A DNA stretch of 64,000 nucleotides from Gemmatimonadota bacterium (GCA_041500125.1 JBGQLP010000009.1:2767-66766), one strand, 5' to 3'. Counted from the first letter of the stretch, positions 1,975 through 52,693 are shown. Made by a program: numbers and translations. The notes: generated by a model not told the origin, from the letters alone.

Positions 1975-2028
1975 ACTCTATTCCCGGCTCGTGAAGCCTG
2001 TGTGGGGGAAGTATGAAGCTTGCTTCAT
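1975..2028 (-). promoter_or_regulatory. CTTCA-box array plus -10 for the multicopper oxidase/decarboxylase operon
   Basis: TGAAG at 1992 and 2014 (22 bp apart); palindrome ATGAAGCTTGCTTCAT at 2013-2028; TAGAGT (minus) at 1980-1975. Confidence 0.65.
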
Positions 2029-2053
2029 GGATGGGGTAGCGGTTCTTTCTCTC

Positions 2054-2536
2054 TCAGTCCCGTTCCACCGACTTGGATCCCTGCACTCCTGGGGCACCCG
2101 CTCGAAGCTCGGCATGCCGAATGGGCCCTCCGGTCCAAGCCGCAAGACCGAACAGCCCAGAGCTGACGATCAGTCCCAGGAGCACCAGCACCGAGAGGAC
2201 GCGCGTGCGGCGGGGCCTGTGCCTCTCTCCCCACAAGGCGAGGGCGGCCAACGCTCCGGTTGCGAGCACGGCGATCAGTCCAACCTTGGCATTTTCCTCA
2301 TGATCCTCTATGGTTGCCTTCTCAACCCCGATCATATCCTCGACCTGTTCCTCTGCCGGTTCTCCGGTCAGATAGACCGGTACCGTCAACACCGCCAGGA
2401 CTACCGTAGCCCACAGGGTGGTCCGGATCAGGCTGGGTGAGCTGCGTATCAGCCCCACTGCCAGGAGCAATACGAGCAGGACGGTACCCAGGACGGGAAT
2501 GTGGTTCGCCATCAGGTGGATATGGGCCCAGTTCAT
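2054..2536 (-). CDS. 4-TM membrane protein with conserved-looking His residues (DUF2231-like, possible heme b binding)
   Basis: HIHLMANHIP, IEDHEE, IRHAE; hydrophobic helices; SD GAGGAG. Confidence 0.7.
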   Translation of the reverse strand: MNWAHIHLMANHIPVLGTVLLVLLLAVGLIRSSPSLIRTTLWATVVLAVLTVPVYLTGEPAEEQVEDMIGVEKATIEDHEENAKVGLIAVLATGALAALALWGERHRPRRTRVLSVLVLLGLIVSSGLFGLAAWTGGPIRHAELRAGAPGVQGSKSVERD

Positions 2537-2572
2537 GTGGTGCTCCTCTCGTTCGCGCCGTATCGCTCTCCC

Positions 2573-2617
2573 AGTTTACACTGCGGTTTGTGAAGAAGCT
2601 CTGACCCAACTGTGAAG
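2573..2617 (-). promoter_or_regulatory. CTTCA-box array plus -10
   Basis: TGAAG/TGACC/TGAAG at 2591/2602/2613; TAAACT (minus) at 2578-2573. Confidence 0.7.
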
Positions 2618-2632
2618 GTCACGTTTGGAGCG

Positions 2633-5344
2633 ATGACCAGCTCAAAACCCTCGGTGTCCTGGCACTCCCTCGCGGCCGCGGAAACCCTGGCCGTCTTGGA
2701 CTCACGACCGGATGGACTGAGTCCGGCAGAAGCCGGGGAACGTCTCGCCCGTTATGGCCCCAATCAGTTTCAAGTGTCCCGCCCAGTATCGGCCTGGACC
2801 GTGCTCCTTGGCCAGCTGCGCAGCGTCATCGTGTTGCTGCTCGGCGCCGCCGGGATGGTCGCGTTCTATACCGGTGATGTCTTGGACGGCGCGGCCATCA
2901 TTGCGGTCCTCGTCCTCAATGTCGGGATCGGTTTTGCCACGGAGCTCCAGGCCCGCCGGGCCATGGCCGCTCTCCTGGCACTCGAGGTAGCCCGAGCCAG
3001 AGTGATCCGGGGAGGCCAGTTGATGGACATCGAAGCGCCCAACCTGGTCCCCGGTGATGTGCTGGAGGTCGCTGCAGGAGACGCCGTGCCTGCCGATGCC
3101 CGATTGCTCGAAGCCATCGAGCTGCGCACGCTGGAAGCGTCACTGACCGGCGAACCGATGCCGGCAGAAAAGGTGGCGGACGCAAAGCTCCATGGTGATG
3201 CCCCGCTGGCAGACCGGACCTCGATGATCTACAAGGCGACCACAGTCGTGGCGGGTCGCGGCCGCGCGGTGGTGGTGGCGACGGGAATGGCCACGGAGGT
3301 CGGCCGTATCGGTGCTTTGGTCAGCGGAATACCTGAGGAGCAAACCCCTCTCGAACGGCGGCTCGACGCGCTGGGCCGACGCCTGGTCGCAGTGGCCCTT
3401 GCCGTCGCCGGGCTGGTCGCCTGGCTCGGTATGCGTCAGGGAATGGCCGTCGGCGAGCTGCTCCAATCCGCGCTCGCCCTCGCCGTCGCCGCCGTCCCTG
3501 AGGGACTTCCCGTTGTCGCCACGATCGCGATGGCCGTGGGGGTCCGGCGGATGGCGCGCCGGCGGGCACTAATCCGGCACCTGCCGGTGGTCGAAACCCT
3601 GGGCTCGGCGACCACCATCTGCACCGATAAGACGGGCACTCTCACCGCCGGCGAGATGACGGCGACCGTAATCCAGCTGGACAATCTCGAGGTGTCGATC
3701 ACCGGAGCCGGTTATGCGCCCGAGGGTGAGTTTCGAGTCAAGGATGGCCGTATCGACCCCCTCGCCGATCCCCGGCTCGAGGCGGCGATCCGGATCTGCG
3801 CCCTGTCGATCAGGGGCGGGGTAAGCCGCGTGGGAGACTCCTGGGCCGCCGTGGGTGATCCGACCGAAGCCGCGCTTGCGGCCCTGGTGGGAAAGGCCGG
3901 ATTGAGCCGCTCTACGCTGCTTGCCGAATGGCCGCAGGTAGGGGAAGTGCCGTTCACCAGCGAACGGATGTTCATGGCCAGCTTTCACCGCACGCCATCC
4001 GGCCTTCTGGCCTGCGTAAAGGGGGCGCCCAGACGGGTACTCCAGCTCAGCAGCCGGGTTCTCACGAACAGCGGTTCCGGGGAGTTGGACGACCCGCAGC
4101 GCCAGCTGCTCCTCAACTGGAACAGCCGGCTCGCTGCCCGAGGATTGCGGGTGTTGGCACTGGCCCAGAAGCAAGTATCCAGTGCCGACGAGGCTGCGCT
4201 GGGCGGACTGACCTGGGTCGCACTGGTGGGCTTGAGTGATCCTCCAGCGCCGGGCGTCCGCGAGACTATCGCCACGTTCAGAGGCGCGGGGATCCGGACC
4301 GTCATGCTCACAGGGGATCAGCGCCTCACCGCCGAACGGATCGCGGAGGAGCTCGGGCTCCGCTCGCCGGGAGACACGATTCTCGATGGCAGTGAGATCG
4401 ACCGCCTGTCGGATCCGGAGCTTCGCGATAGGGTGCAGCGGACGGCAGGATACAGCCGAGTCAGCCCCGAGGCCAAACTGCGAATCATCAGCGCCTACCA
4501 GGCGTGCGGTGAGGTCGTGGCGATGCTGGGAGATGGGGTGAATGACGCAGCCGCGCTGAGGAAGGCGGATATCGGCGTCGCCATGGGCAGGCGGGGCACC
4601 GACATGGCCAAGGAGGCCGCCGATCTCATTCTGGAGGACGATCAGTTTCCCACGATCGCGGTGGCGGTGGAAGAGGGGCGGGTCGTCTTTGACAACATTC
4701 GGAAATTCGTGTTCTATCTTTTCAGCTGCAACCTGGCCGAGATACTGGTGCTCCTCGGCGCGGGGGCAGGGGGATTTCCTCTGCCGCTGCTTCCGCTGCA
4801 GATCCTGTGGCTCAACCTGCTGACCGATACCGTCCCGGCCCTCGCGCTCGCGGTGGAGCCGGCTGAACCCGAAATCATGCGGCAACCACCCCGCAACCCA
4901 CGGGAGGCAATTCTCTCGGCCCCGATGATCAAATCGATCCTCGGCTACGCGCTGCTCATCAGTGGGTGCACCCTCCTGGCCTTCTGGTGGGGACTCACGC
5001 ACTCACTGCACAGCACGCTCCACGCCACCACCCTGGCCTTCATGACGCTGGCCTTTGCCCAGATCTTTCATCTGGGCAACGCACGCAGCGCATCTCCGGT
5101 ACTGGCTCCAGCCCGAGTAGCCAGCAACCGCTTTGCCCTCCTTGCGGTGGTGATCACTGGTGGGTTGCAAGCCCTCGCGGTCAGCCTGCCCCCACTGGCT
5201 CACACGCTACGGCTATCTCCGCTGCGACTCGAGGATTGGGCGATGGTGCTGAGCCTGGCGGCCATCCCAGCGGTACTGGGACAAGGGATCAAAGTGTTCA
5301 GGAGGGCCGCCACCGCTTCGCCTTCTCACTTTAGCGTGTCGTGA
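2633..5344 (+). CDS. P-type IIA cation-transporting ATPase (CtpF/PacL-like)
   Basis: [32 protein letters not shown]; ATG 2633 after GGAG preferred to GTG 2612. Confidence 0.92.
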
Positions 5345-5809: not shown

Positions 5810-8266
5810 TCAGCATTCCGCCGGCCCGGCGGCGATTCGCGTCGCGACCTTGGCCAACGAGTCGGGATTGAGTGAAATGGAATCTATACCTAACTGAACC
5901 AGGTATTCCGCGAACTCGGGATAATCACTGGGTGCCTGCCCGCAGATACCCACCCGGCGGCCCTTCTTGTGCGCGGCTGCGATGACCATTTGAATCAGCC
6001 GCTTCACGCCCAGGTCCCGTTCGTCGAAGAGATGGGCGAGTAGCTCGGAGTCCCGGTCAACCCCGAGCGCAAGCTGGGTGAGGTCGTTGGAGCCGATGGA
6101 GAACCCATCGAATAGGTCGCTGAACTCCTCGGCCAGGATCACGTTGTTCGGGATTTCACACATGACGTAGACCTCGAGGCCGTGCTGCCCTCGGATCAGG
6201 CCGTTCTCCGCCATCTCGCGCAACACCCGCCGTCCTTCCTCGAGGGTCCGGCAGAAGGGCACCATCACCTTGACGTTGGTGAGGCCCATCTCCTCCCGCA
6301 CCCGCCAGATTGCAGCGCACTCCAGCGCAAAGGCGTCGCGGTAGCGTTCGTCGTAATAGCGGGACGCGCCCCGAAATCCGATCATCGGGTTGGACTCAAC
6401 CGGCTCGAACGCGCTCCCACCGAGGAGTCCGGCATATTCGTTGGTCTTGAAGTCGGAGAACCGGACAATTACCGGCCGGGGGTAAAAGGCCGCCGCGATC
6501 TGAGCCAGCCCCATGGTCAGGCGGCTGATGAAGAACTCCCAGGCGGGACGCAGGTCCCCGATCCGCTGCCGGATCTCAGCCAGCGCCTGCGGATCCGTGA
6601 CCCGCTCGGGATGGAGCAGCGCCATGGGATGAATGCCGATCCAGTTCGACACTATGAACTCGATGCGAGCCAACCCGACCCCCTCCGTCGGCAGCTGAGC
6701 CAGATAGAAGGCGCGCTCCGGGTTGGCCAGGTTGAGCATCAAGGGTACCGCGGGTGTGGGCAGGGTCGCGGGGTCGATTTCTTCACGGTCAAAAGGCACG
6801 ATGCCGGCGTACACCTTCCCGTCGTCTCCTTCAGCACAGGAGATGGTCACCTCCTGGCCATCCGTCAGGGTGTGGGTCGCCCGGACGGTGCCCACGACAC
6901 ACGGTATTCCCAATTCACGGGCAACGATGGCGGCATGACAGGTCCGGCCTCCTTCGTCGGTAACCACCGCCGCGGCTGCCTTCAGCACCGGCTCCCAGTC
7001 AGGATCGGTCATCGGTGCCACCAGAACCTCGCCGGGGCGAAACGCGCTCAACTCCTCGGCAGAGTGGATGACCCGTACCCGCCCGCTCGTCACCCGGTTG
7101 CCCACGGCCTGACCGGTCAGCAGCACCTCGCCCGCGCCCTGGCGGCGGAAGAACTCGAGCTTCGGACGAGTGACCTGGGAGTGAACGGTCTCCGGCCGAG
7201 CCTGGAGGATGAACAGCTCGCCGGTGTGACCATCTTTGGCCCACTCGATATCCATCGGGGTGGGACGTCCAGCCCGCTCGGAGTAGTGATCTTCGATGGC
7301 GAGGGACCAGTGAGCGAGGGTCAAGACGTCGTCGTCACTCAGCACCGCGCGCCGGCGGTCCCGCCGGGGCACCCGGACCTCTTTCACCGTCTTCGCGCTT
7401 TCCTCGGCATACACCAGCTTCACCGCCTTCTCCGGCACCTCCCGGCGGATGATGGACCGGTGTCCCGCACGAAGCGTCGGCTTGTGGACCCAGAACTCAT
7501 CCGGCCGTACTCGTCCCTGGACCACCGTTTCGCCCAGACCCCAGGCGCCGGTGATGAGGATTACATCGCGGAATCCGCTTTCCGTATCCAGCGTGAAGAT
7601 CACCCCGGCCGAGCCGAGGTCGCTGCGGACCATCTTCTGAACGCCGACCGACAGGGCCACGTCACGGTGAGCGAACCCGCGCTGAGCGCGATAGACGATG
7701 GCGCGGTCGGTGAAGAGGGACGCCATGCAGCCGCGAATCGACCGGTCCAGCGCCTCGCGGCCTCGGATGTTCAGAAAGGTCTCCTGCTGTCCCGCGAACG
7801 AGGCGCTCGGCAGGTCCTCCGCGGTTGCGCTGGAGCGAACCGCCACGTCGGTGCCTTCATCGTTCGAACCGGCGGAGAGTGCGGTGTAGGCCGCGTCGAC
7901 CGCCGCGGCCACCGGTGCCGGGAGCGGGGCGCCCGCGATCCGGGCGCGGATAGAGCGAGCCGCCGATGCCAGTGCGGTAATATCCGTAACATCGAGATGA
8001 TCCAGCTCGGCATAGATGGCGGAATCCAGTCCCGCTTCCTTCAGATGGAGTCGGAAGGCGTCGGACGTCAGAGCAAAGCCGTCGGGTATCCGGATTCCTT
8101 TCGGCGCCAACGCTCCGATCATCTCGCCCAGAGACGCGTTCTTGCCCCCGACCCGCGGCAAATCGTCCAGATTGAGCTTGCTAAACGGTACGACGTACTC
8201 AGGCACCGTGCTCGGCTCGGACTTCGAGATCTGCCGGCCCTGAATGGCCACAGTGGCGTGTCCCAT
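5810..8266 (-). CDS. ppsA: Phosphoenolpyruvate synthase (pyruvate, water dikinase)
   Basis: VGGKNASLGE, AVRSSATAEDLP, GGRTCHAAI phospho-His, SIGSNDLTQ, ICGQAPSD. Confidence 0.96.
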   Translation of the reverse strand: MGHATVAIQGRQISKSEPSTVPEYVVPFSKLNLDDLPRVGGKNASLGEMIGALAPKGIRIPDGFALTSDAFRLHLKEAGLDSAIYAELDHLDVTDITALASAARSIRARIAGAPLPAPVAAAVDAAYTALSAGSNDEGTDVAVRSSATAEDLPSASFAGQQETFLNIRGREALDRSIRGCMASLFTDRAIVYRAQRGFAHRDVALSVGVQKMVRSDLGSAGVIFTLDTESGFRDVILITGAWGLGETVVQGRVRPDEFWVHKPTLRAGHRSIIRREVPEKAVKLVYAEESAKTVKEVRVPRRDRRRAVLSDDDVLTLAHWSLAIEDHYSERAGRPTPMDIEWAKDGHTGELFILQARPETVHSQVTRPKLEFFRRQGAGEVLLTGQAVGNRVTSGRVRVIHSAEELSAFRPGEVLVAPMTDPDWEPVLKAAAAVVTDEGGRTCHAAIVARELGIPCVVGTVRATHTLTDGQEVTISCAEGDDGKVYAGIVPFDREEIDPATLPTPAVPLMLNLANPERAFYLAQLPTEGVGLARIEFIVSNWIGIHPMALLHPERVTDPQALAEIRQRIGDLRPAWEFFISRLTMGLAQIAAAFYPRPVIVRFSDFKTNEYAGLLGGSAFEPVESNPMIGFRGASRYYDERYRDAFALECAAIWRVREEMGLTNVKVMVPFCRTLEEGRRVLREMAENGLIRGQHGLEVYVMCEIPNNVILAEEFSDLFDGFSIGSNDLTQLALGVDRDSELLAHLFDERDLGVKRLIQMVIAAAHKKGRRVGICGQAPSDYPEFAEYLVQLGIDSISLNPDSLAKVATRIAAGPAEC

Positions 8267-8288: not shown

Positions 8289-8332
8289 AATGTGACCTGC
8301 CATAGTGAAGGGGATATGAAGGCGAAAGGAAG
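8289..8332 (-). promoter_or_regulatory. CTTCA-box array upstream of ppsA
   Basis: TGAAG/TGAAG/GGAAG at 8306/8317/8328; CACATT (minus) at 8294-8289. Confidence 0.7.
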
Positions 8333-9352: not shown

Positions 9353-9397
9353 CTTCATACAAGCTTCACCTTCGATTCAGCGCGGGACCGGCAGCTT
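9353..9397 (+). promoter_or_regulatory. CTTCA-box array upstream of CBS gene
   Basis: CTTCA/CTTCA/ATTCA at 9353/9364/9375; CAGCTT at 9392. Confidence 0.7.
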
Positions 9398-14218: not shown

Positions 14219-14368
14219 CGTGGTCTCAAGCTGGGTGCGATCGGGGGCAGCAGTGGCGCAGACTTCAGGATGAAGGTTAGCTCCGACGCGACGTGAATGA
14301 GGGCGGCGAGGAGCGGGTTCAAGACCCCGAAGTTGACGGTGGTTCGCTCTTGAATCAATGTAGCAAGT

Positions 14369-14423
14369 GTGAAGACTCCTTCATGCCGGCTTCAGGCCTA
14401 GTTTGCAGGGGTGGAGGCATAGT
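14369..14423 (+). promoter_or_regulatory. CTTCA-box array upstream of acg-like gene
   Basis: CTTCA at 14379/14390; palindrome GTGAAGACTCCTTCAT at 14369-14384; CATAGT at 14418. Confidence 0.65.
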
Positions 14424-14457
14424 TGGTCCATCGTTTTCGCTGGCTCAGGAGCGGACC

Positions 14458-16705: not shown

Positions 16706-16739
16706 AAGATCGCGGGAGGATAGTGAAACGAGTGTGAAC
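16706..16739 (-). promoter_or_regulatory. CTTCA-like array upstream of BON gene
   Basis: TGAAA/TGAAC at 16724/16735; GATCTT (minus) at 16711-16706. Confidence 0.55.
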
Positions 16740-16786
16740 GGCGGGACAAGATTGGTTCATGGGATTGCCCGTGACCGGAGGTCGAC

Positions 16787-18920: not shown

Positions 18921-18986
18921 GTGAAGGGATTTTCATCGGTCCTTCATGACTGACTCAAGCCGGGTGGTTCACCTTACTCGTACCAT
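18921..18986 (+). promoter_or_regulatory. CTTCA-box array for the 19029-24741 operon
   Basis: TTTCA/CTTCA/ACTCA at 18931/18942/18953; TACCAT at 18981. Confidence 0.6.
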
Positions 18987-25476: not shown

Positions 25477-25521
25477 AAGTTACTCGGCGGGGGCGTATCC
25501 CAGGGTGAAGCCAGTATGAAG
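25477..25521 (-). promoter_or_regulatory. CTTCA-box array for DUF302
   Basis: TGAAG at 25506/25517; TAACTT (minus) at 25482-25477. Confidence 0.65.
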
Positions 25522-25538
25522 ATTTCTTCGGATGAAGG

Positions 25539-25583
25539 TTTCACGGCAGGTTCAGCGATCCTTCATCTGCGCCGGATTACCAT
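25539..25583 (+). promoter_or_regulatory. CTTCA-box array for the PRTase-hydrolase-EreA-USP operon
   Basis: TTTCA/GTTCA/CTTCA at 25539/25550/25561; TACCAT at 25578. Confidence 0.75.
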
Positions 25584-30200: not shown

Positions 30201-30245
30201 ATACTGGTCGCTAAGGGTGGAAGCGGGTGTGAGGGCCAGATGAAG
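30201..30245 (-). promoter_or_regulatory. CTTCA-like array for the minus-strand USP
   Basis: GGAAG/TGAGG/TGAAG at 30219/30230/30241; CAGTAT (minus) at 30206-30201. Confidence 0.6.
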
Positions 30246-30260
30246 ATTCCTTGGTCATGG

Positions 30261-30293
30261 GTTCACGGGAGCTTCACGTCGTCTGGTGATCTT
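30261..30293 (+). promoter_or_regulatory. CTTCA-box array for the USP-archease-rtcB-hpf operon
   Basis: GTTCA/CTTCA at 30261/30272; GATCTT at 30288. Confidence 0.65.
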
Positions 30294-33489: not shown

Positions 33490-33534
33490 TTTCATCCCAA
33501 CTTCATGATCGCTTCACTAGGTCGACGATACTTT
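33490..33534 (+). promoter_or_regulatory. CTTCA-box array plus -10 leading into a structured non-coding region
   Basis: TTTCA/CTTCA/CTTCA at 33490/33501/33512; TACTTT at 33529. Confidence 0.75.
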
Positions 33535-33865: not shown

Positions 33866-34444
33866 ATGCTCTATCTCTGGCTCAAGACCTTCCACCTTGT
33901 CGGCATCGTGAGTTGGTTCGCCGGGTTGTTCTACCACGGCCGGCTGTTGGTCTATCACGCCGAGGCGCTCACCTCGACCGAGCCGCGGCGTGAGATCCTG
34001 GCCTCCCAGTACCAGATTATGGAATCGCGGTTGTTCCGCATCATCATGAACCCCGCCATGGGACTCAGCCTCGCCACTGCGGCCGCCATGCTTCTGACTC
34101 CCATTGGCCGCGGGTACATCACTCAGCCATGGATGCTGGCCAAGCTGGTCCTGGTGGCGGTCCTCGTCGCTTTCCACTTCTGGATGCGCCGGATCATGCT
34201 GGAGCTCGCGGAGAGTCGCGTGCGGGGGAGCACCGAATGGTTCCGGATGCTAAACGAGGTGCCGACGCTCATTCTCGTCCTTGTCACCCTGCTCGCGGTC
34301 TTCAAGGCTGCTGTCCCCTGGGGCGGTCTCGGCGCAACGGGAGCGGTGCTCGTGGTGGCCATCCTGATCGGCATAAGGGCCTATGGCCGGCATCGCAGGG
34401 AAGGCGAGCTCTCTCGATCCGCGACCTCTCCTGAAGGAACCTGA
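33866..34444 (+). CDS. hemJ: Protoporphyrinogen oxidase HemJ
   Basis: WLKTFHLVGIVSWFAGLFY, MESRLFRIIMNPAM, FRMLNEVPT. Confidence 0.9.
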   Translation: MLYLWLKTFHLVGIVSWFAGLFYHGRLLVYHAEALTSTEPRREILASQYQIMESRLFRIIMNPAMGLSLATAAAMLLTPIGRGYITQPWMLAKLVLVAVLVAFHFWMRRIMLELAESRVRGSTEWFRMLNEVPTLILVLVTLLAVFKAAVPWGGLGATGAVLVVAILIGIRAYGRHRREGELSRSATSPEGT

Positions 34445-34451
34445 CAACTTC

Positions 34452-34484
34452 CTTCACGGACTCTTCACCCTGGATAGTTAGCAT
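34452..34484 (+). promoter_or_regulatory. CTTCA-box array plus -10, probable leaderless hemN promoter
   Basis: CTTCA at 34452/34463; TAGCAT at 34479-34484; ATG 34491 with no SD. Confidence 0.75.
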
Positions 34485-34490
34485 CTGCTT

Positions 34491-37140: not shown

Positions 37141-37175
37141 GCCGGACCACCCAGCTGCGCCGTGAACGAGACGCC

Positions 37176-39916: not shown

Positions 39917-39966
39917 ATCGAAGTCCCACCCGGGTTGTTTGGATGCCTAAACTCGGGGTCCACTAA

Positions 39967-39993
39967 TGAGGCAATCATGAAAAGACTGTGAAA
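39967..39993 (-). promoter_or_regulatory. CTTCA-like array for GGDEF gene 1
   Basis: TGAGG/TGAAA/TGAAA at 39967/39978/39989; no clean -10 seen. Confidence 0.55.
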
Positions 39994-41887: not shown

Positions 41888-41932
41888 AGGCTAGACAAAC
41901 TCGGATGAGGAAATCGTGAAGCAGCGGTGAAG
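41888..41932 (-). promoter_or_regulatory. CTTCA-box array plus -10 for cls
   Basis: TGAGG/TGAAG/TGAAG at 41906/41917/41928; TAGCCT (minus) at 41893-41888. Confidence 0.75.
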
Positions 41933-43032: not shown

Positions 43033-43077
43033 AACCTGGCTGCTCAACCATGAGGCGATCATGAAACCACCGTGAGA
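43033..43077 (-). promoter_or_regulatory. CTTCA-like array for GGDEF gene 2
   Basis: TGAGG/TGAAA/TGAGA at 43051/43062/43073; CAGGTT (minus) at 43038-43033. Confidence 0.55.
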
Positions 43078-44066: not shown

Positions 44067-44110
44067 AATCTACCGGCAAGGTATGAAGTCAGGTTGAAGA
44101 TCGCACGAAA
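44067..44110 (-). promoter_or_regulatory. CTTCA-box array plus -10, probable leaderless prs promoter
   Basis: TGAAG/TGAAG/CGAAA at 44084/44095/44106; TAGATT (minus) at 44072-44067; ATG 44060. Confidence 0.75.
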
Positions 44111-44128
44111 TCTGCATGACTCGAGCGC

Positions 44129-44173
44129 CTTAACCTTGGTTTAACGGAAAACCCATCCCTACAGCTGTACCCT
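44129..44173 (+). promoter_or_regulatory. Variant (CTTAA) array for DUF2267/PRTase
   Basis: CTTAA/TTTAA at 44129/44140; TACCCT at 44168. Confidence 0.5.
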
Positions 44174-44541: not shown

Positions 44542-44554
44542 AGGGAGAATTGCC

Positions 44555-45680: not shown

Positions 45681-45713
45681 CTCCTCCAGGGTTCTCCACC
45701 ACTCCGGGATGAA

Positions 45714-45864: not shown

Positions 45865-45908
45865 ATTCTACACCACCCGCCTGAAGCGCCCGTGAAGACC
45901 GCGCGAAG
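45865..45908 (-). promoter_or_regulatory. CTTCA-box array plus near-consensus -10
   Basis: TGAAG/TGAAG/CGAAG at 45882/45893/45904; TAGAAT (minus) at 45870-45865. Confidence 0.8.
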
Positions 45909-46231: not shown

Positions 46232-46235
46232 GGGC

Positions 46236-47432: not shown

Positions 47433-47469
47433 GTGTTGCTCCCTCATCTGGTAGATTGATGCCAGATGC

Positions 47470-47970: not shown

Positions 47971-48015
47971 AATGTGCTGCCGCGCGAGTGAAGGAATCAT
48001 GAAGTCTGGGGGAAG
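47971..48015 (-). promoter_or_regulatory. CTTCA-box array for the CBS-baeRF operon
   Basis: TGAAG/TGAAG/GGAAG at 47989/48000/48011; CACATT (minus) at 47976-47971. Confidence 0.75.
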
Positions 48016-48042: not shown

Positions 48043-48087
48043 TCTCACGTGGGCTTCACCGTCACCTCAAGCCGGTGCAGCAACATT
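48043..48087 (+). promoter_or_regulatory. CTTCA-box array for hsp20
   Basis: TCTCA/CTTCA/CCTCA at 48043/48054/48065; CAACAT/AACATT at 48081-48087. Confidence 0.65.
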
Positions 48088-48747: not shown

Positions 48748-50766
48748 TCAGATCGATCGAGGAGGGAAGGCTGCTCGGAGCGCGTTAAGGATCACGGCGA
48801 CGTCGATCGCCTCCTGCAGCAACGCCCCGGCTACCGGCGGGATGTAGCCGAAGCTTGCGACTACCATCGCCGCTCCACTCAGCCCCAGCCCCGCCCAGAT
48901 GCTCTGCCGGGCCAGTCGCAGGGTGCGGCGGCTGATCGTGATAGCCTCGGCAACCCGACTGGGGTCGTCCGCCAGGATCACCGCGTCGGCAGCCTCGGCG
49001 CTGATGCCTCCGCCGCCGGAGGCCAGCGCGATCCCAACCGTCGCGGTGCTGAGTGCCGGCGCGTCGTTGGTCCCGTCCCCAACCATGAGGACGCGCTCCC
49101 CTTCCTTCATGAGGCGTTGGACGTAGGCGACCTTCTCTTCCGGCAACAGGTCGCCATGCGCCTCTTCGATCCCCACCGCACGTGCCACTGCCGTAGCGTT
49201 GGCCTGATCGTCACCAGAGAGGAGGACGATCTTCGAGAGACCCAGGGAGCGGAGCTCGGGGATGAAGCCGACCAGCTCCGGCCGCAGCCGATCGGCGTAC
49301 TCGATCAATCCGGCTCCCTGCCCATTGACCGTGACGTAGGCTCTAAGTCCAGCGCCCGGTATCTGGGTCAGCAGGCCCTGGAGGGGAAGTTTAGCGGCAG
49401 GATGACGGTGCACCACAAACGACCACCCACCTACCGTCACCTGCTGGCCCTCCACCTGGCCACTGACTCCCTGGCCGGGTGCCTCGATGACGTTCTCCCC
49501 CGGTGGAAGCTCGATGCCGCGTTCGAGTGTTTCCTGGACTAACGTGCGGGCGAGCAGATGCCCGGACCCGTGCTCCACGCTGCCGGCAAGCCGGAGTACC
49601 TCAGGCTCGGTGAACCCAGGTGCGGGGAGCACCCGGGCGACCCGGGGCCGTCCGATCGTCAGGGTTCCTGTCTTGTCGAAGACGGCTACGCCGACCCGGC
49701 CGAGCTGCTCCAGCGCGCTGCCGTGGCGGAAGATGATGCCCCGGCGGGCGGCGCGGTTGATGCCACCGACCACCGCCACCGGCGTGGCGAGAATGAGCGG
49801 GCATGGGGTTGCGACGACCAGCACGGCGAGCACCCGAGTGGGATCGCCGGATAAGAGGTAGGCTCCGACACAAACGGCAAGGGTAATGGGGGTGAACCAG
49901 GCGGCGTATCGGTCGGCCAGCCGCTGGAGCGGCGACTTGCTCCCCTGAGCGGTGCGGACCAGGTCCACAATCCTGGCATATTGGCTTTCACTCGCGGGAG
50001 CCGTCGCGCGAACGGTGAGGGGACTCTCGAGGTTGAGGCTGCCACTGAGCAGCTTGATGCCGGCGTCAGCGCTCACCGGAACCGGCTCTCCCGTGAGCCG
50101 GGATGCGTCCACGTGGGAGCGGCCTTCGAGCACCACGGCATCGCAGGCCAGCAGCTCCCCAGGCCTGAGCAGGAGCTCGTCGCCCACCCTGACCATCTCC
50201 GCCGCCACGTCGGTCACCTCGCCACCCAGCATCCGATGGGCCAGGCGGGGAGCGGCTGCTTCGAGCTCTCGAACCGCCTCCGACGCCCGGCCTTGCGCGT
50301 ATCGCTCGAGCGCCTCGCCGCCGGTCTGCATGAGGACCACGATGAGACCGGCGAGCGGCTCCCGCAGGATCAGCGCGGTGATGATGGCCAGCATCGCCAC
50401 GAGATCCGCGGCGAAACGGCCCCCGGCAATGCCCCGCAGGGTCCGCCAGACGACTGGCGCGCCGGTGAGTGCCAGCCCCGCGCTCCACAGCAGGGACGCC
50501 ATGCCGGGGCGCCCCGCTATATGGAGGAGCAGCCCGGTCAGAATGAAAAGAAGAGCGCCGGCCGGAAGAAGGTAGAAACGGCCCGGCAGGTGGTGGGCTA
50601 GAGCGCGGGCGAGATCTCGGCCCCGTCCCCGCCGCGGCGGAGGCTGAACCCCACGCCCCGGACCGTGGCCAACAGCTGCTCCTTGGCGGCCTCGCTGAGC
50701 TTCCGGCGCAGATTGCCCACGTGGACGTCCACCACGTTGCTCTCCGGATCGAAGTGCATGTCCCAT
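48748..50766 (-). CDS. Heavy-metal P1B-5-type ATPase (start uncertain)
   Basis: ATPCP, DKTGT, QSIWAGLGLSGAAM (QX4GX3SX3M), PVAGALLQEAIDVAVILN. Confidence 0.88.
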   Translation of the reverse strand: MGHALRSGEQRGGRPRGQSAPEAQRGRQGAAVGHGPGRGVQPPPRRGRGRDLARALAHHLPGRFYLLPAGALLFILTGLLLHIAGRPGMASLLWSAGLALTGAPVVWRTLRGIAGGRFAADLVAMLAIITALILREPLAGLIVVLMQTGGEALERYAQGRASEAVRELEAAAPRLAHRMLGGEVTDVAAEMVRVGDELLLRPGELLACDAVVLEGRSHVDASRLTGEPVPVSADAGIKLLSGSLNLESPLTVRATAPASESQYARIVDLVRTAQGSKSPLQRLADRYAAWFTPITLAVCVGAYLLSGDPTRVLAVLVVATPCPLILATPVAVVGGINRAARRGIIFRHGSALEQLGRVGVAVFDKTGTLTIGRPRVARVLPAPGFTEPEVLRLAGSVEHGSGHLLARTLVQETLERGIELPPGENVIEAPGQGVSGQVEGQQVTVGGWSFVVHRHPAAKLPLQGLLTQIPGAGLRAYVTVNGQGAGLIEYADRLRPELVGFIPELRSLGLSKIVLLSGDDQANATAVARAVGIEEAHGDLLPEEKVAYVQRLMKEGERVLMVGDGTNDAPALSTATVGIALASGGGGISAEAADAVILADDPSRVAEAITISRRTLRLARQSIWAGLGLSGAAMVVASFGYIPPVAGALLQEAIDVAVILNALRAAFPPRSI

Positions 50767-51299
50767 ACTTTCTCCAGGAGCGTAGTGCGCCGGACGACTT
50801 CTTCGGGGTGAAGCAGGAAATACTCGAGCAGTTGAAACTCCTTGGGGGTGAGATCCAGCCGCTTTCCATCTATGGTCGCGACATGCCGGAGCCGGTCAAG
50901 CGCAATCGGAGGATAGCGCAGGACTTCCAGCCGCTCGGCACCCCCACGGCGGTGGAGGGCCCGGATGCGGGCCAGGAGCTCGTCAAACTCGAACGGCTTC
51001 GCGAGATAATCGTCGGCCCCGGCATCCAGCCCGCGCACGACGTCCTCCACCGCGTCGCGTGAGGTCAGCATCAGGATGGGCGTAGCCCGTCCCTCCCGCC
51101 TCAGCTCGGTCGCGACCTGGAAGCCGCTCTTCTTGGGGAGCACAATATCGAGCAGGATGACATCGTAATCGTACACGTGAGCCAGCAGGGTGGCCTCGTC
51201 GCCATCCGGCGCCACGTCCACGATATACCCTTCTTCCTTCAGCCCCTGTTCGATGAACCCGGCGACCTTCCGGTCGTCTTCCACCACGAGGATCTTCAT
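50598..51299 (-). CDS. OmpR/PhoB-family response regulator
   Basis: REC (VVEDD, LLD, GADDYLAKPF) plus winged helix (LTPKEFQLLEY, VW, SNVVDVHVGNLRRKL, TVRGVGF). Confidence 0.96.
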   Translation of the reverse strand: MKILVVEDDRKVAGFIEQGLKEEGYIVDVAPDGDEATLLAHVYDYDVILLDIVLPKKSGFQVATELRREGRATPILMLTSRDAVEDVVRGLDAGADDYLAKPFEFDELLARIRALHRRGGAERLEVLRYPPIALDRLRHVATIDGKRLDLTPKEFQLLEYFLLHPEEVVRRTTLLEKVWDMHFDPESNVVDVHVGNLRRKLSEAAKEQLLATVRGVGFSLRRGGDGAEISPAL

Positions 51300-51306
51300 G
51301 CGCGGT

Positions 51307-51361
51307 AATCTGGGGAGTAGTGGTTAAGGTCCTCCGGAAGCCTTCATGAAGCTTTCTTCAC
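51307..51361 (-). promoter_or_regulatory. Autoregulatory box array for the response regulator
   Basis: GGAAG/TGAAG at 51336/51347; palindrome ATGAAGCTTTCTTCAC at 51346-51361; CAGATT (minus) at 51312-51307. Confidence 0.6.
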
Positions 51362-52602
51362 GTTCGTGGGCTAGCGGGAAGCTCGAGCACAAAGCAGCCG
51401 CCGCCGCCGGCGGGCCGGGCCAGCGCCCGTAGCTCCCCGCCGAGCAGTCGGGCCAGCCGCCGGGAGAGAGGTAGCCCCAGCCCCATGCCGCGGGTGTCAC
51501 CCACGTCCTTGCTGATGTAGATGTCGAAAATTCGCTCGATCTCGCTCTCCTCGATCCCGGATCCCTGGTCCAGCAGGGTGTAGATCACGATGGATTCCCG
51601 GCCGGTGACCTCGAGGCGGACTGTGCTCCCCTCCGGCGTATGCTTGATGGCATTGCCCAGCAAGTTGATCAGGATCTGCTCCACCCTGCTGGCGTCGGTC
51701 TCGCAGCTGGGAAGATCCGGGGCGACGTCTACCTGGAGCAGGATCCGTTTGGCCTCTGCTGCTGGTGTGACCCGAGCGACCGCCCGCCCCGCCATGGAGC
51801 CTGGGTCGGTGGCCCGGATCACCGGTCGCAACCGGTCTTCGTCGAGTCGGCTCAGATCGAGCAGGTCGTTGATGAGTCCGACAGCCTGCTTGGCCGAGTC
51901 GAGCACCTCGAATGCGGCTTTGGGGACGGTGGCCGGGTCTTTCTTGCGCACCATCATCTCTGCCCAGCCGTGCACCGCGGCCAGAGAGTTCCTCAGTTCG
52001 TGGTTCACCATGGCGAAGAAGCGCTCCCGGGTTCGATGGAGCTGCTGCACTTCCTCCAGCAGCCGGGCGCTCTCTTCATGCAGCCTCGCGTTCTCGACCG
52101 CCGCAGCAGTGTTGGCCGCAAGGAGCACGGCGATGTGCTCATCCTCGTCGGTGAACCGCTCGCCCCCCAGCTTCTCCGTGAGATACAGATTACCGAAAAT
52201 GCCCCGTTTCCCCACGATCGGGACCCCAAGGAACGATTGCATTGGAGGATGGTGGGGCGGGAAACCGTAGGACTCGGGGTGTTTGGTGAGGTCGGGGAGG
52301 CGAATCGGTCTCGCCGCGCGGATTACCAACCCCAGAATGCCATGGCCCCGCGGCACGTCTCCGATAAGCGCACGTTGCTGGGCATCGATGCCGTGGGTGA
52401 CAAAGCTCTCCAAGAGCCGGCCATCCGGTGCCAGCACCCCAACGGCGGCGAATCGGGCTCCGATGACCTCGGCCGCCACCTCTACTACGCGCTCGAGCAC
52501 CCCTTCCAGGGAGACTTCGGTGATCAAGGAGGAGGCGGCTAAGACCAGCCGCTCCAGCCGTGGGCTGCCCGGAGCCGGACGGGCGATTGATGTCTGAGTC
52601 AC
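51358..52602 (-). CDS. Sensor histidine kinase: DosS-type heme-GAF + HisKA + HATPase
   Basis: GAF with HPESYGFPPHHPPMQSFLGVP..GNLYLTEK; H-box NHELRNSL; NLLGNAIKHT, DQGSGI, GMGLGL; GTG 52602 likely start. Confidence 0.92.
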   Translation of the reverse strand: MTQTSIARPAPGSPRLERLVLAASSLITEVSLEGVLERVVEVAAEVIGARFAAVGVLAPDGRLLESFVTHGIDAQQRALIGDVPRGHGILGLVIRAARPIRLPDLTKHPESYGFPPHHPPMQSFLGVPIVGKRGIFGNLYLTEKLGGERFTDEDEHIAVLLAANTAAAVENARLHEESARLLEEVQQLHRTRERFFAMVNHELRNSLAAVHGWAEMMVRKKDPATVPKAAFEVLDSAKQAVGLINDLLDLSRLDEDRLRPVIRATDPGSMAGRAVARVTPAAEAKRILLQVDVAPDLPSCETDASRVEQILINLLGNAIKHTPEGSTVRLEVTGRESIVIYTLLDQGSGIEESEIERIFDIYISKDVGDTRGMGLGLPLSRRLARLLGGELRALARPAGGGGCFVLELPASPRT

Positions 52603-52648
52603 TCCCAAAGCTATAGCGAAAGCTCGCCCGTCCGAAACCCCGAAAAAC

Positions 52649-52693
52649 ATTCGTACTGCCTTAATGCTTTCTTCACGGCCCCGCCGGTAGGCT
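52649..52693 (+). promoter_or_regulatory. CTTCA-box array plus -10 for the USP operon
   Basis: ATTCG/CTTAA/CTTCA at 52649/52660/52671; TAGGCT at 52688. Confidence 0.7.

What the first reader, a model, noticed from the sequence alone, without database searches (positions are those of the whole stretch)
1975..52693. About 23 promoter arrays of a CTTCA pentamer at an 11-bp period define the regulon
Seen: CTTCA-like boxes (TGAAG on the plus strand for minus-strand genes) start at 2591/2602/2613, 8306/17/28, 9353/64/75, 14379/90, 16724/35, 18931/42/53, 25506/17, 25539/50/61, 30219/30/41, 30261/72, 33490/501/512, 34452/63, 39967/78/89, 41906/17/28, 43051/62/73, 44084/95/106, 44129/40, 45882/93/904, 47989/48000/11, 48043/54/65, 51336/47 and 52649/60/71, plus 1992/2014 at 22 bp. 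All are intergenic and read CTTCA in the direction of transcription. Most have an xAxxxT hexamer 16-17 or 28 nt after the start of the last box (TAGAAT, TAGCAT, TAGATT, TAGCCT, TAGGCT, TAAACT, TACCAT, TACTTT). Established: PhoB/OmpR regulators bind ~11-bp tandem repeats that replace the -35. Inference: these are the sites of the 50598-51299 regulator.
Basis: partly seen in the sequence, partly recalled or inferred. Interest (0 to 1): 0.92.

Follow-up and report, generated by a model that had tools for sequence, protein, structure and literature searches.

The report
Hypoxia-type regulon with tandem CTTCA promoters
About twenty neighbouring promoters in an uncultured soil and sediment bacterium carry the same three-fold CTTCA repeat, most likely the landing site of a local oxygen/NO-sensing two-component system that switches on a dormancy-like gene set.

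Summary
Exact CTTCA-N6-CTTCA occurs 10 times in the window against 0.07 expected. That is 10 of the 19 copies in the 3.48-Mb genome.

The unit is three head-to-tail yTTCAy boxes at an 11-bp period. A TAnnnT -10 hexamer starts 17 nt after the start of the proximal box, and there is no canonical -35. I count 19-20 robust arrays, 3-4 weak ones and 1 doubtful one (44129).

They front about 20 transcription units. The genes overlap the mycobacterial DevR/DosR and Streptomyces OsdR dormancy sets: tandem USPs, Acg nitroreductase, HSP20, CBS pairs, HPF, RtcB, P-type ATPase and a PEP/pyruvate dikinase.

The organism is an uncultured Gemmatimonadales MAG.

- The array plus -10 module is conserved beside regulator orthologues in 80 other genomes.
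- A conserved three-box promoter sits directly in front of the regulator gene.
- Genomes of the family with the orthologue average 8.7 triple boxes; those without average 2.4.

The partner kinase carries a DosT/DevS-type haem GAF-A domain (E 3.9e-43), but on a HisKA transmitter. This looks like a rewired DosS-like sensor driving an OmpR-type regulon. No binding or transcription-start data exist.

The parts
1986..2018 (-). Array (middle box degenerate) plus TAGAGT -10. Reads to the multicopper oxidase (NirK-like) gene 862-1929.
   Evidence: 17.3 bits with the external matrix; Pfam.
2585..2617 (-). Array plus TAAACT -10. Reads to membrane protein 2054-2536.
   Evidence: 17.2 bits.
8300..8332 (-). 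Array. Reads to PEP synthase / pyruvate phosphate dikinase-like gene 5810-8266.
   Evidence: 22.2 bits; Pfam.
9353..9385 (+). Array. Reads to CBS-pair protein 9428-9829 and L,D-transpeptidase 9804-11495.
   Evidence: 25.2 bits.
14368..14411 (+). Two-box array, weaker. Reads to Acg-type nitroreductase (ORF 14293-15468, true start probably near 14450) and DUF4342.
   Evidence: 13.7 bits, no -10 at +16/17; PDB 2ymv E 5.7e-15.
16718..16750 (-). Weaker array (TTTCA, GTTCA). Reads to BON-domain protein 16017-16679.
   Evidence: 11.7 bits.
18931..18963 (+). Array. Reads to operon 19029-24741: unknown protein, nucleoside/AMP phosphorylase-like, PRPP synthase-like, unknown protein, Cpn60/TCP1 chaperonin, flavodoxin-like.
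   Evidence: 19.3 bits.
25489..25532 (-). Two-box array with the -10 28 nt after the last clear box. Reads to DUF302 protein 25035-about 25480.
   Evidence: 11.2 bits.
25539..25571 (+). Array plus TACCAT. Reads to PRTase, alpha/beta hydrolase, erythromycin-esterase-family protein and tandem USP (about 25590-29218).
   Evidence: 24.1 bits.
30213..30245 (-). Weak array. Reads to tandem USP 29227-30138.
   Evidence: 7.6 bits external; 19.3 bits with the window-trained matrix.
30250..30282 (+). Weaker array. Reads to tandem USP, archease, RtcB and HPF (30314-33481).
   Evidence: 13.2 bits.
33490..33522 (+). Strong array plus TACTTT. Reads to a 94-nt repeat element and HemJ-like gene 33836-34444.
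   Evidence: 28.7 bits.
34441..34473 (+). Array plus TAGCAT, with 6 nt to the ATG. Reads to HemN-like radical SAM, fatty-acid desaturase and GlpD-like genes (34491-38864).
   Evidence: 19.5 bits.
39961..39993 (-). Strong array. Reads to PAS-GGDEF 38951-39916.
   Evidence: 28.7 bits.
41900..41932 (-). Strong array plus TAGCCT. Reads to PLD/cardiolipin-synthase-like gene 40291-about 41860.
   Evidence: 32.6 bits.
43045..43077 (-). Strong array. Reads to PAS-GGDEF 41952-42956.
   Evidence: 26.8 bits.
44078..44110 (-). Array plus TAGATT, with 6 nt to the ATG. Reads to PRPP synthase 43122-44060.
   Evidence: 22.7 bits.
44118..44161 (+). Doubtful array (CTTAA/TTTAA). Possibly serves PRTase 44519-45223.
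   Evidence: 2.8 bits; Pfam.
45876..45908 (-). Array plus TAGAAT. Reads to small ORFs of unknown family (45279-45859).
   Evidence: 23.9 bits.
47983..48015 (-). Strong array. Reads to CBS pair 47470-47907, baeRF-family protein 46236-47552 and 45989-46288.
   Evidence: 30.1 bits.
48043..48075 (+). Array. Reads to HSP20 48142-48585.
   Evidence: 17.8 bits.
51319..51351 (-). Autoregulatory array (CTTCA, CTTCC, degenerate third box). CAGATT -10 at 51307-51312, with 7 nt to the regulator's ATG.
   Evidence: Low score here (3.3 bits), but the three boxes, tAGaTT and the 7 nt to ATG are the consensus of 78 unique upstream regions.
52649..52681 (+). Array plus TAGGCT. Reads to tandem USP 52714-53574, YgaP-like protein and two more tandem USPs (to 55821).
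   Evidence: 34.1 bits. The orthologous array is present in 54 of 69 loci with enough upstream DNA.
50598..51299 (-). OmpR/PhoB-family response regulator, the proposed binder. Followed by P-type ATPase (ORF 48748-50766, overlapping it).
   Evidence: Pfam Response_reg 9.3e-30 and Trans_reg_C 8.9e-27; translation; PDB neighbours.
51358..52653 (-). Soluble sensor histidine kinase: one DosT/DevS-like haem GAF-A domain, HisKA and HATPase. The likely start is Met17 of ORF 51358-52701.
   Evidence: Pfam; PDB 2vzw E 3.9e-43 with alignment; translation.

Best explanation
The window holds a 51-kb regulon island of an uncultured Gemmatimonadales bacterium.

Promoter module. About 20 promoters share one architecture. 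Three head-to-tail boxes (yTTCn, yTTCAy, CTTCAy) are spaced 11 bp start to start. A TAnnnT -10 hexamer begins 17 nt after the start of the proximal box. There is no -35 element.

Proposed mechanism. The kinase at 51358-52653 is a soluble sensor. Its single GAF domain is of the DosT/DevS haem-binding type, and by analogy it responds to O2, NO or CO. It phosphorylates the OmpR/PhoB-type regulator at 50598-51299. The phosphorylated regulator binds the tandem boxes head to tail and stands in for the -35 contact, so it recruits the housekeeping sigma factor (class II activation, as with PhoB or PmrA).

Output. The system switches on a dormancy or anoxia programme:
- six tandem USPs, Acg nitroreductase, HSP20, CBS-pair proteins;
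- ribosome hibernation factor, RtcB and archease;
- oxygen-independent haem synthesis (HemN);
- PEP/pyruvate dikinase, PRPP and nucleotide salvage;
- a P-type ATPase (48748-50598, read from the regulator's own promoter), two PAS-GGDEF cyclases, a NirK-like oxidase;
- on other contigs, a molybdopterin oxidoreductase with multihaem cytochrome.

The regulator also activates its own gene from a near-leaderless promoter.

Shown: the motif, its period, strand, position and enrichment; the fixed -10; the gene content; the domain make-up; conservation and co-occurrence across genomes.

Inferred: binding by this regulator, activation, the signal, and the start sites.
For: Motif and enrichment: see the observation check.

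Promoter function.
- In 87 arrays from 80 loci of other genomes, chosen only on the 33-nt array, the flanking positions +40 and +44 are A in 97% and T in 100%.
- After removing the two orthologous site classes, 49 of 53 remaining arrays keep NAnnnT at +16/17 and 26 of 53 keep TAnnnT. Background is 6-7% and about 1%.
- The place where a -35 would lie (array positions 16-21) shows no TTGACA-like consensus.

Link to the regulator.
- 1.11 Mb around regulator orthologues holds 87 arrays of 20 bits or more, against 0 in the reversed control.
- The array on the kinase/USP divergent side is present in 54 of 69 loci.
- The 72 nt before the regulator's ATG have the consensus CTTCA-N6-xTTCC-N6-xTTCA, then tAGaTT, then 7 nt, then ATG, over 78 unique sequences.
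- In the genus, 17 genomes with an orthologue at 86% identity or more total 134 triple-box matches against 15 control matches. Six genomes without one total 8 against 10.
- In the family, 60 genomes with the orthologue average 8.7 against 0.75 control. Eleven without average 2.4 against 0.9.
- Orthologues at 63-67% identity in three other families still have arrays with the -10 nearby in 5 of 5 loci.

Sensor.
- The GAF domain matches DosT GAF-A (2vzw, E 3.9e-43) and DevS (E about 1e-35).
- The alignment keeps the HHPPM histidine and the LYLT tyrosine. These correspond to the proximal His149/147 and distal Tyr171/169 described in PMC4082495 (passages read).
- It is the only such GAF domain in the genome.

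Gene content. It overlaps the DevR regulon table in PMC3177182 (USPs, ctpF ATPase, acg and Rv3131 nitroreductases, hspX, Rv2626c, Rv0079). It also overlaps the OsdR targets in PMC5069765 (USP, alcohol dehydrogenase, nitroreductase, pyruvate phosphate dikinase).

Precedent for the box. The PmrA box is CTTAAT-N5-xTTAAT bound head to tail (PMC3973317, passages read), and BasR/PmrA is among the nearest solved structures.

Expression. Contigs from RNA libraries of rice-paddy and soil samples cover the regulator, HSP20, CBS, baeRF, USP and GGDEF genes at 90-100% identity. This is weak evidence, because contigs cannot show strand or level.
Against: - There is no binding, footprint, start-site or expression-shift data for any site.
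- The arrays and the regulator travel together as one island. Co-occurrence therefore cannot exclude another regulator encoded in the island or elsewhere. Four other canonical OmpR-type regulators exist in the genome.
- Related genomes are not independent, so the Mann-Whitney p of 1e-4 overstates the case.
- Exceptions to co-occurrence: G040 (87% complete) has 7 triple boxes against 0 control but no orthologue was found. G171 (10 against 0) and G078 (5 against 0) also lack an orthologue.
- G036 and G038 have orthologues at 77-78% identity but no array of 14 bits or more within about 8 kb.
- G012 has an orthologue but 0 exact CTTCA pairs, although it has 8 triple-box matches.
- The regulator's own promoter scores only 3.3 bits in this genome. 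At 18 bits or more, such a promoter is seen in only 11 of 79 loci.
- The external logo is dominated by one orthologous site: 54 of the 118 sites of 18 bits or more.
- The kinase lacks the second GAF domain of DosS/DosT. Haem binding is inferred from sequence only.
Confidence: 0.75

Rival explanations
1. The arrays are real activator sites, but a different winged-helix regulator binds them. Candidates are one of the four other OmpR-type response regulators of the genome (contigs C65, C18, C1, C59) or an unrecognised factor. The local regulator would then be just one more regulon member.
For: Five canonical OmpR-type regulators exist. Island-wide co-occurrence does not single out one protein. 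Three genomes have triple boxes above control without a detected orthologue: G040, G171 and G078.
Against: None of the 24 arrays of 22 bits or more lies on C65, C18, C1 or C59. The kinase-regulator pair is flanked on both sides by conserved arrays in most of 80 genomes. The best paralogues are only 41-47% identical. Self-regulation from an own-motif promoter is typical of the cognate regulator (established knowledge, recalled).
Confidence: 0.12
2. The local regulator binds the arrays but acts as a repressor or anti-activator. It would occlude the promoter until the signal removes it.
For: The proximal box overlaps the region RNA polymerase must contact. Some OmpR-family members repress (recalled).
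Against: The promoters lack any -35 consensus. The box-to--10 distance is fixed to within 1 nt in 22 of 23 window arrays and 49 of 53 non-orthologous external arrays. That is expected if the protein replaces the -35 contact and is unnecessary for simple occlusion. The spacing equals the pho-box arrangement (recalled).
Confidence: 0.08
3. The repeats are not regulatory. They would be remnants of a mobile or repetitive element, or a by-product of composition or coding periodicity.
For: Periods 9 and 12 also show raised counts because of codon periodicity. Matrix hits of 16-21 bits elsewhere in the genome mostly fall inside coding regions.
Against: - Period 11 is not a multiple of 3.
- The reversed-genome control gives 0 hits of 20 bits or more against 38.
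- The arrays are intergenic and oriented with the downstream gene.
- Only the boxes and the -10 are conserved, not the spacers.
- Orthologous positions are kept across 80 genomes.
- The repeat search finds no long repeat families at these sites.
Confidence: 0.02

Closest known systems
DosS/DosT-DosR (DevS/DevR) dormancy system of Mycobacterium, and OsdK-OsdR of Streptomyces
   Same: - The sensor domain is a haem-type GAF-A, about 54% identical to DosT, with the proximal His and distal Tyr kept.
- The kinase is soluble, and the kinase and regulator genes lie next to USP genes.
- The regulator is autoregulated.
- The regulon holds USPs, Acg-type nitroreductase, alpha-crystallin/HSP20, a CBS-pair protein, an S30AE/HPF protein, a P-type ATPase, a pyruvate/PEP dikinase and an alcohol dehydrogenase.
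- Several tandem sites occur per promoter.
   Different: - The regulator is OmpR/PhoB-type, not NarL/LuxR-type.
- The kinase has one GAF domain instead of two.
- The kinase has a HisKA (PF00512, HELRN H-box) transmitter. DosS is recalled to use HisKA_3.
- The DNA site is a head-to-tail direct repeat of a pentamer at 11 bp. The OsdR sites printed read as GC-rich inverted repeats, and the Dev box is recalled as a 20-bp palindrome.
- The phylum is different (Gemmatimonadota).
PhoB pho-box promoters and PmrA/BasR boxes (OmpR/PhoB family, class II activation)
   Same: - Head-to-tail hexamer half-sites are separated by 5 bp, giving an 11-bp period.
- The PmrA half-site CTTAAT differs from CTTCAT by one base, and some sites here read CTTAAT.
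- The proximal repeat starts 17 nt before the -10 and replaces the -35. The pho-box distance is recalled.
- BasR/PmrA, PrrA, RegX3, MtrA and PhoP are the nearest solved structures.
   Different: - There are three units per promoter rather than two.
- The sensor is a cytoplasmic haem-GAF kinase, not a membrane PhoR/PmrB.
- The regulon is unrelated to phosphate or lipid A.
- The regulator is only about 40-50% identical to any characterised member.
Streptomyces PhoP PHO boxes and Bacillus PhoP tandem repeats
   Same: Variable numbers (2-4) of 11-nt direct repeat units on one DNA face, read by an OmpR-family regulator in a high-GC or Gram-positive background (recalled, not checked in a paper here).
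   Different: Different core sequence, signal and regulon. No orthology was shown.

Membership tests
OmpR/PhoB-family response regulator (the protein at 50598-51299) | N-terminal receiver domain with the acidic pocket, phospho-acceptor Asp, and conserved Thr and Lys | tested here: met
   Pfam Response_reg covers 1-111 of 111 model positions, E 9.3e-30. The translation shows DD at 8-9, D51 in LLDIVLP, T79 and K101 in AKPF. Residue roles are assigned by position, recalled.
OmpR/PhoB-family response regulator (the protein at 50598-51299) | C-terminal winged-helix Trans_reg_C domain | tested here: met
   PF00486 covers 1-77 of 77 positions, E 8.9e-27. Full-length matches to DrrD, PrrA, RegX3, BasR, MtrA and PhoP structures.
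OmpR/PhoB-family response regulator (the protein at 50598-51299) | Binds tandem direct repeats spaced about one helical turn apart | not testable with these tools
   The sites have this form, but binding was not measured.
PhoB-type (class II, -35-replacing) activated promoter | Direct repeats at an 11-bp period on one DNA face | tested here: met
   Period 11 gives 40 sites against 3-8 for periods 8, 10, 13 and 14. Logo.
PhoB-type (class II, -35-replacing) activated promoter | Proximal repeat at a fixed short distance from a -10 hexamer, with no -35 consensus | tested here: met
   TAnnnT at +17 has A in 97% and T in 100% of 87 external sites. No TTGACA-like signal appears at array positions 16-21. 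22 of 23 window arrays fit. Background is 6-7%.
PhoB-type (class II, -35-replacing) activated promoter | Activator contacts sigma region 4, and transcription depends on it | not testable with these tools
   Needs in vitro transcription or genetics.
DosS/DosT (DevS) haem sensor kinases | Haem-binding GAF-A domain with the proximal His and distal Tyr | tested here: met
   2vzw E 3.9e-43 and DevS GAF-A E about 1e-35. HHPPM and LYLT are aligned. Residue roles come from PMC4082495. Haem binding itself was not tested.
DosS/DosT (DevS) haem sensor kinases | Second GAF domain (GAF-B) between GAF-A and the kinase core | tested here: not met
   One GAF domain at residues 63-203, followed directly by HisKA at 225-288 in a protein of about 430 aa. 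DosS constructs have GAF-A at 63-210 and GAF-B at 231-379.
DosS/DosT (DevS) haem sensor kinases | HisKA_3-type dimerisation/phosphotransfer domain with a NarL-family partner | tested here: not met
   Pfam finds HisKA PF00512 (E 3.2e-13) and no HisKA_3. The H-box is HELRN. The two HisKA_3 kinases of the genome are on other contigs. The partner is OmpR-type. That DosS uses HisKA_3 is recalled.
DevR/DosR dormancy regulon | Controlled by a NarL/LuxR-type regulator through palindromic Dev boxes | tested here: not met
   The regulator is OmpR-type, and the motif is a direct repeat. The OsdR sites are GC-rich inverted repeats as printed.
DevR/DosR dormancy regulon | Characteristic gene set: USPs, Acg nitroreductases, alpha-crystallin, CBS protein, S30AE protein, ctpF-type ATPase | tested here: met
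   Pfam and PDB hits, compared with the tables. The equivalences RtcB = Rv2631 and erythromycin-esterase/PRTase = Rv2030c are recalled, not checked.

The most novel reading that the evidence does not exclude
A whole dormancy/anoxia regulon has been re-tooled at both ends of the signalling path.

The haem GAF-A oxygen/NO sensor known from actinobacterial DosS/DosT was recombined with an EnvZ/PhoR-type transmitter and an OmpR-type regulator. At least 20 promoters of a DosR-like gene set then acquired three-unit CTTCA direct repeats in place of palindromic Dev boxes.

The same physiological programme would thus be run by a non-homologous regulator and cis code in Gemmatimonadales. It is packed into one 51-kb island, which may move or be lost as a unit. 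This would give a sequence-readable marker of anoxia survival in an abundant, mostly uncultured soil and sediment lineage.
Probability: 0.5. Interest if true: 0.75.

Novelty: new variant of a known kind. Interest (0 to 1): 0.62.

Why it matters
Gemmatimonadales are common in soils and sediments, yet almost nothing is known about their gene regulation. This finding gives three things.

- A complete, testable regulatory circuit read from sequence alone: sensor, regulator, DNA code, promoter geometry and about 50 target genes.
- An example of regulon rewiring. A DosS/DosT-type haem sensor is coupled to a different output family, while the downstream gene set stays recognisably dormancy-like. That bears on how regulons evolve and on what the conserved core of the mycobacterial dormancy response is.
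- A practical correction. At least one annotation pipeline labels a homologue of this kinase 'NarL family ... DevS', and that label would mislead regulon prediction.

The motif can be used to predict the regulon in hundreds of metagenome-assembled genomes.

Tried and rejected
Tried and inconclusive or negative

- RNA evidence for start sites. Only assembled contigs of three RNA libraries were available. None of the listed pieces bridges from the regulator gene into the kinase gene. Listed pieces over the regulator stop at 51270 (two runs of one study) and 51288 (another study, with an adapter-like loose end at 51290). The kinase bins had little or no depth. The stops are not at one place and contigs cannot show ends, so I draw nothing from this about a leaderless start or about the kinase not being transcribed.
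- Rfam at gathering threshold and tRNA scan of the window: nothing.
- Fold of the 94-nt repeat: no more stable than shuffles.
- Upstream inverted TGAAG. I looked for an extra inverted TGAAG box upstream of arrays, as seen at 14379, 18931, 1992 and 51336. External sites show only about 0.1-0.2 bits at positions -6 to -1. At 51336 the TGAAG overlaps the kinase's stop codon. I rejected it as a general feature.
- Exact-pair counts across relatives are too insensitive. G012 has an orthologue but 0 exact pairs. I replaced this measure with the triple-box pattern.
- Several triple patterns were mis-spaced by me and gave zeros. They were corrected.
- Regulator homologues at 58-60% identity (G115, G145) have no arrays nearby. 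I treat them as probable paralogues.
- Matrix hits of 16-21 bits outside the island are mostly inside coding regions. I do not count them as regulon members.
- Sites on C23, C51, C4, C91 and C122 precede unrelated genes: galactose-oxidase-like, unknown, GSDH, RHH-PIN and integrase. They are left open.
- Not used: complex prediction, structure prediction, fold search, the protein-atlas search and the search of protein representatives. A textbook kinase-regulator pair would pass by likeness.
- Literature. No paper on a Gemmatimonadota hypoxia or dormancy regulon, or on a DosT-like GAF kinase paired with an OmpR-type regulator, turned up in searches. I read search listings and abstract starts only. 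Subscription journals are not covered.
- Papers read. I saw passages only (find mode) of PMC4082495, PMC2194188, PMC3177182, PMC5069765 and PMC3973317. Supplementary tables of PMC3177182 and PMC5069765, which may list more regulon members, were not requested.

Full report
1. What is there

The window is G000:C9:2767-66766 of a 3.48-Mb, 155-contig genome with 65% G+C. Record titles of the nearest loci name uncultured Gemmatimonadales / Gemmatimonadota MAGs.

The boxes are present. On the strand of the downstream gene they read CTTCA or a one-letter variant.

Exact CTTCA-N6-CTTCA occurs 10 times in the window. The mean over 100 dinucleotide-preserving shuffles is 0.07, and the largest shuffle value is 1. 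In the whole genome the 11-nt period gives 19 exact pairs, 10 of them in the window, which is 1.8% of the genome. Other periods that are not multiples of three give 3-10.

Aligned on the proximal box, the arrays show three 11-nt units, each beginning yTTCAy.

2. Statistics and controls

I rebuilt the seeds by coordinate and made a 33-nt matrix.

- It finds 38 sites of 20 bits or more in the genome and none in the reversed genome. Sixteen of the 38 are in the window.
- Of the 24 sites of 22 bits or more, 14 are in the window.
- Of those 24, 19 have a same-strand gene start within -120 to +300 nt on a crude GC3-based gene map. The five misses include three window sites in front of small or uncalled genes, one site at a contig end, and one on C23.
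- Below about 22 bits, hits outside the island are mostly inside genes, so I do not count them.
- With only the 7-nt cores of the three units and a variable period, sites of 18 bits or more number 40 at period 11. They number 3, 6, 5 and 8 at periods 10, 13, 8 and 14, and 22 and 16 at periods 9 and 12 because of codon periodicity.

That matrix was trained on its own hits.

- 16 score 17 bits or more.
- 4 score 11-14 bits.
- 30219, 51336 and 44129 score 7.6, 3.3 and 2.8 bits.
- The 99th percentile for random window positions is 1.2 bits.

3. The arrays are promoters

The 87 external sites were selected on the 33-nt array alone. Even so, the flank shows a sharp signal. T, A and T at positions 39, 40 and 44 occur in 56%, 97% and 100% of sites. 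This is a TAnnnT hexamer starting 17 nt after the start of the proximal box.

That sample is dominated by one orthologous site, so I split it.

- Among 53 sites that are neither the USP-side nor the regulator-side orthologue, 49 have NAnnnT and 26 have TAnnnT at +16/17.
- Background is 6-7% for NAnnnT and about 1% for TAnnnT.
- In the window, 22 of 23 arrays have NAnnnT at +16/17.
- Where a -35 hexamer would sit (array positions 16-21) there is no TTGACA-like consensus.

Several genes begin 6-7 nt after the hexamer: the regulator, 43122-44060 and 34491. This suggests leaderless or near-leaderless mRNAs.

The spacing equals that of the proximal pho-box repeat in E. coli PhoB promoters. That comparison is recalled, not checked in a paper here.

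4. The genes behind the arrays (Pfam; PDB)

- Six two-domain USPs.
- An Acg-type nitroreductase (2ymv, E 5.7e-15).
- HSP20 and two CBS-pair proteins.
- A BON protein and a DUF302 protein.
- An S30AE/HPF ribosome hibernation factor behind USP-archease-RtcB.
- HemJ-like and HemN-like haem enzymes, a fatty-acid desaturase and a GlpD-like dehydrogenase.
- A PEP synthase / pyruvate phosphate dikinase-like enzyme.
- Two PRPP synthases, a PRTase (a second, at 44519-45223, lies only behind the doubtful 44129 array), a nucleoside/AMP phosphorylase-like protein and a Cpn60/TCP1 chaperonin.
- An erythromycin-esterase-family protein.
- Two PAS-GGDEF proteins and a PLD/cardiolipin-synthase-like protein.
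- A baeRF-family protein.
- One of the island's three P-type ATPases (48748-50598, downstream of the regulator). The ATPases at 2612-5344 and 11603-14218 have no array reading toward them.
- A NirK-like two-domain multicopper oxidase.

On other contigs, strong arrays precede a molybdopterin oxidoreductase with a multihaem cytochrome, a second HSP20, a third CBS pair, a cytochrome c and a YceI protein.

This set overlaps the DevR regulon table of M. tuberculosis: USPs Rv1996, Rv2005c, Rv2623 and Rv3134c; ctpF; nitroreductases acg, Rv3131 and Rv3127; hspX; Rv2626c; Rv0079 (PMC3177182, passages). It also overlaps the OsdR targets of Streptomyces: USPs, alcohol dehydrogenase, nitroreductase and pyruvate phosphate dikinase (PMC5069765, passages). 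That Rv2631 is an RtcB and Rv2030c an erythromycin-esterase/PRTase protein is my recollection.

5. The two-component system

The ORF 50598-51299 (minus strand) is a complete OmpR/PhoB-type regulator, with the usual acidic pocket, D51, T79 and K101. Its nearest solved relatives are DrrD, PrrA, RegX3, BasR/PmrA, MtrA and PhoP.

Directly upstream lies a kinase of about 430 aa with no predicted membrane part. It has one GAF domain, a HisKA domain (PF00512, H-box HELRN) and an ATPase domain.

- The GAF domain matches the haem-binding GAF-A of DosT (2vzw, E 3.9e-43) and of DevS/DosS (E about 1e-35).
- In the printed alignment, the histidine of HHPPM and the tyrosine of LYLT are kept.
- In DosS and DosT these are the proximal ligand His149/His147 and the distal Tyr171/Tyr169 that discriminate O2 from NO and CO (PMC4082495, passages).
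- It is the only such domain in the genome.
- The genome's two HisKA_3 kinases lie elsewhere.

The kinase therefore works like DosS/DosT at its sensing end. It fails two defining features of that family: it has no GAF-B, and it has no HisKA_3 transmitter with a NarL-type partner.

The 120 best homologues of the GAF region in the protein collection carry PF00512 in 119 cases. One is labelled 'NarL family ... DevS' by its source.

6. Is this regulator the binder?

(a) Locus conservation.
- Eighty loci around orthologues at 80-95% identity, from other Gemmatimonadales MAGs and totalling 1.11 Mb, contain 87 arrays of 20 bits or more. The reversed control contains 0.
- An array reading away from the kinase toward the divergent USP gene is present at 18 bits or more in 54 of the 69 loci with enough upstream DNA.
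- The 72 nt before the regulator's ATG were anchored on the ATG without any motif search. Over 78 unique sequences they give the consensus cCTTCAy-N5-xTTCC-N6-xTTCA, then tAGaTT, then 7 nt, then ATG. This is a conserved autoregulatory promoter inside the kinase-regulator junction.

(b) Phyletic pattern in the genus, using the pattern YTC-N8-TTCA-N7-YTCA. In the own genome this pattern gives 20 matches, 12 on C9, against 4 reversed.
- 17 genomes with an orthologue total 134 matches against 15 control matches.
- 6 genomes without one total 8 against 10.

(c) Phyletic pattern in a 150-genome draw from the phylum.
- The orthologue (E of 1e-75 or better) is found in 60 of 71 genomes of the family and in 6 of 79 elsewhere.
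- Within the family, genomes with it average 8.7 matches against 0.75 control.
- The 11 genomes without it average 2.4 against 0.9.

(d) Distant orthologues. Those at 63-67% identity in three other families still have arrays with a correctly spaced -10 nearby: 4 in G117 and one each in G147, G106, G028 and G030.

(e) Other regulators. None of the arrays of 22 bits or more lies on the contigs of the other four OmpR-type regulators.

Against this reading:
- Relatives are not independent.
- The island moves as a block, so co-occurrence cannot single out one protein.
- G040, G171 and G078 have boxes above control without a detected orthologue.
- G036 and G038 have an orthologue but no array within about 8 kb.

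7. Comparison with the known

The DNA code is of the PmrA/PhoB kind. The PmrA box is CTTAAT-N5-xTTAAT, bound head to tail by two effector domains (PMC3973317, passages). Here the half-site is CTTCAy, and sometimes CTTAAT, with three units rather than two.

The physiology and the sensor are of the DosRST kind. The combination was not found in the five literature searches I ran. The combination is a DosT-like haem GAF on a HisKA transmitter, an OmpR-type output, direct-repeat promoters, and a DosR-like gene set packed into 51 kb. I file it as a new variant of known kinds, not as a member of the DosRST family.

8. Expression

Contigs assembled from RNA libraries of rice-paddy (X17, X23) and soil (X24) samples lie on the regulator, HSP20, CBS, baeRF, USP and GGDEF genes at 90-100% identity. 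One HSP20 piece of 233 nt has no mismatch. Other stretches of the same 19 kb have no cover, which argues against plain DNA carry-over. Even so, contigs cannot give strand, ends or levels, so this is only a hint that the genes are transcribed in such habitats.

9. Verdict

30219, 51336 and 44129 are weak, and 44129 is doubtful.
- Confidence that the arrays are activator-dependent promoters is about 0.95.
- Confidence that the local regulator binds them is about 0.8.
- Confidence that the signal is a haem ligand (O2, NO or CO) is about 0.65.
- Confidence in the overall explanation is 0.75.

Noticed in passing
window 33701-33794 and 40177-40270; G000:C46:17718-17865: A 94-nt direct repeat, 99% identical between the two window copies, with a third diverged copy (76%) on C46. 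It has no Rfam family, is not a tRNA, and folds no better than shuffles. In rice-paddy RNA-library contigs, the bin holding the second copy has by far the largest summed depth (318 and 100), with loose ends exactly at the repeat's borders. The first copy lies downstream of the strong 33490 promoter and upstream of the HemJ-like gene. It may be a small RNA or a leader element.
   Followed up: partly
window 51307-51299, 44078-44060, 34473-34491: Several regulon promoters have only 6-7 nt between the -10 hexamer and the ATG. This implies leaderless or near-leaderless mRNAs. For the regulator gene, the spacing is conserved in 78 unique upstream sequences.
   Followed up: partly
window 28256-31279 and 52714-55821: Six paralogous two-domain USP genes lie in two clusters. 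They share 60-80% identical DNA blocks (repeat families D1, D3, D4, D6). This marks a recent expansion inside the island.
   Followed up: no
window 56515-57286 (minus strand): Two short adjacent ORFs (139 and 116 aa) match different parts of haem-copper oxidase subunit I below the Pfam cut-off. They could be a split or decayed oxidase/NorB-like gene, or a divergent small family.
   Followed up: no
window 59768-63998: Just outside the array-bearing region lie a Crp/Fnr-type regulator, a KaiC-like double ATPase with a weak TrmB-type HTH at its end, and a PAS histidine kinase. This may be a second regulatory layer. No CTTCA arrays are found here.
   Followed up: no
window 44360-45223: My GC3-based gene picker chose a minus-strand ORF with no family (44360-45118). 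The overlapping plus-strand ORF 44519-45223 is a clear phosphoribosyltransferase, a paralogue of 25532-26257.
   Followed up: yes
protein P0087: A homologue of the kinase (84% identical in the GAF region, with HisKA PF00512) is labelled by its source as 'two-component system, NarL family, sensor histidine kinase DevS'. The label follows the GAF domain and contradicts the transmitter type.
   Followed up: no
L028 and L045: Two contigs with regulator orthologues at 87-88% identity are filed under Actinomycetes and Acidimicrobiia MAGs. All the others are filed under Gemmatimonadota. This is likely mis-binning rather than transfer.
   Followed up: no
G000:C45:12186-15529 and 23523-25193: A second, smaller cluster of arrays on contig C45 precedes a molybdopterin oxidoreductase with a multihaem cytochrome, an HSP20 and a CBS pair. 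Because the assembly is fragmented, it may be contiguous with the island.
   Followed up: partly
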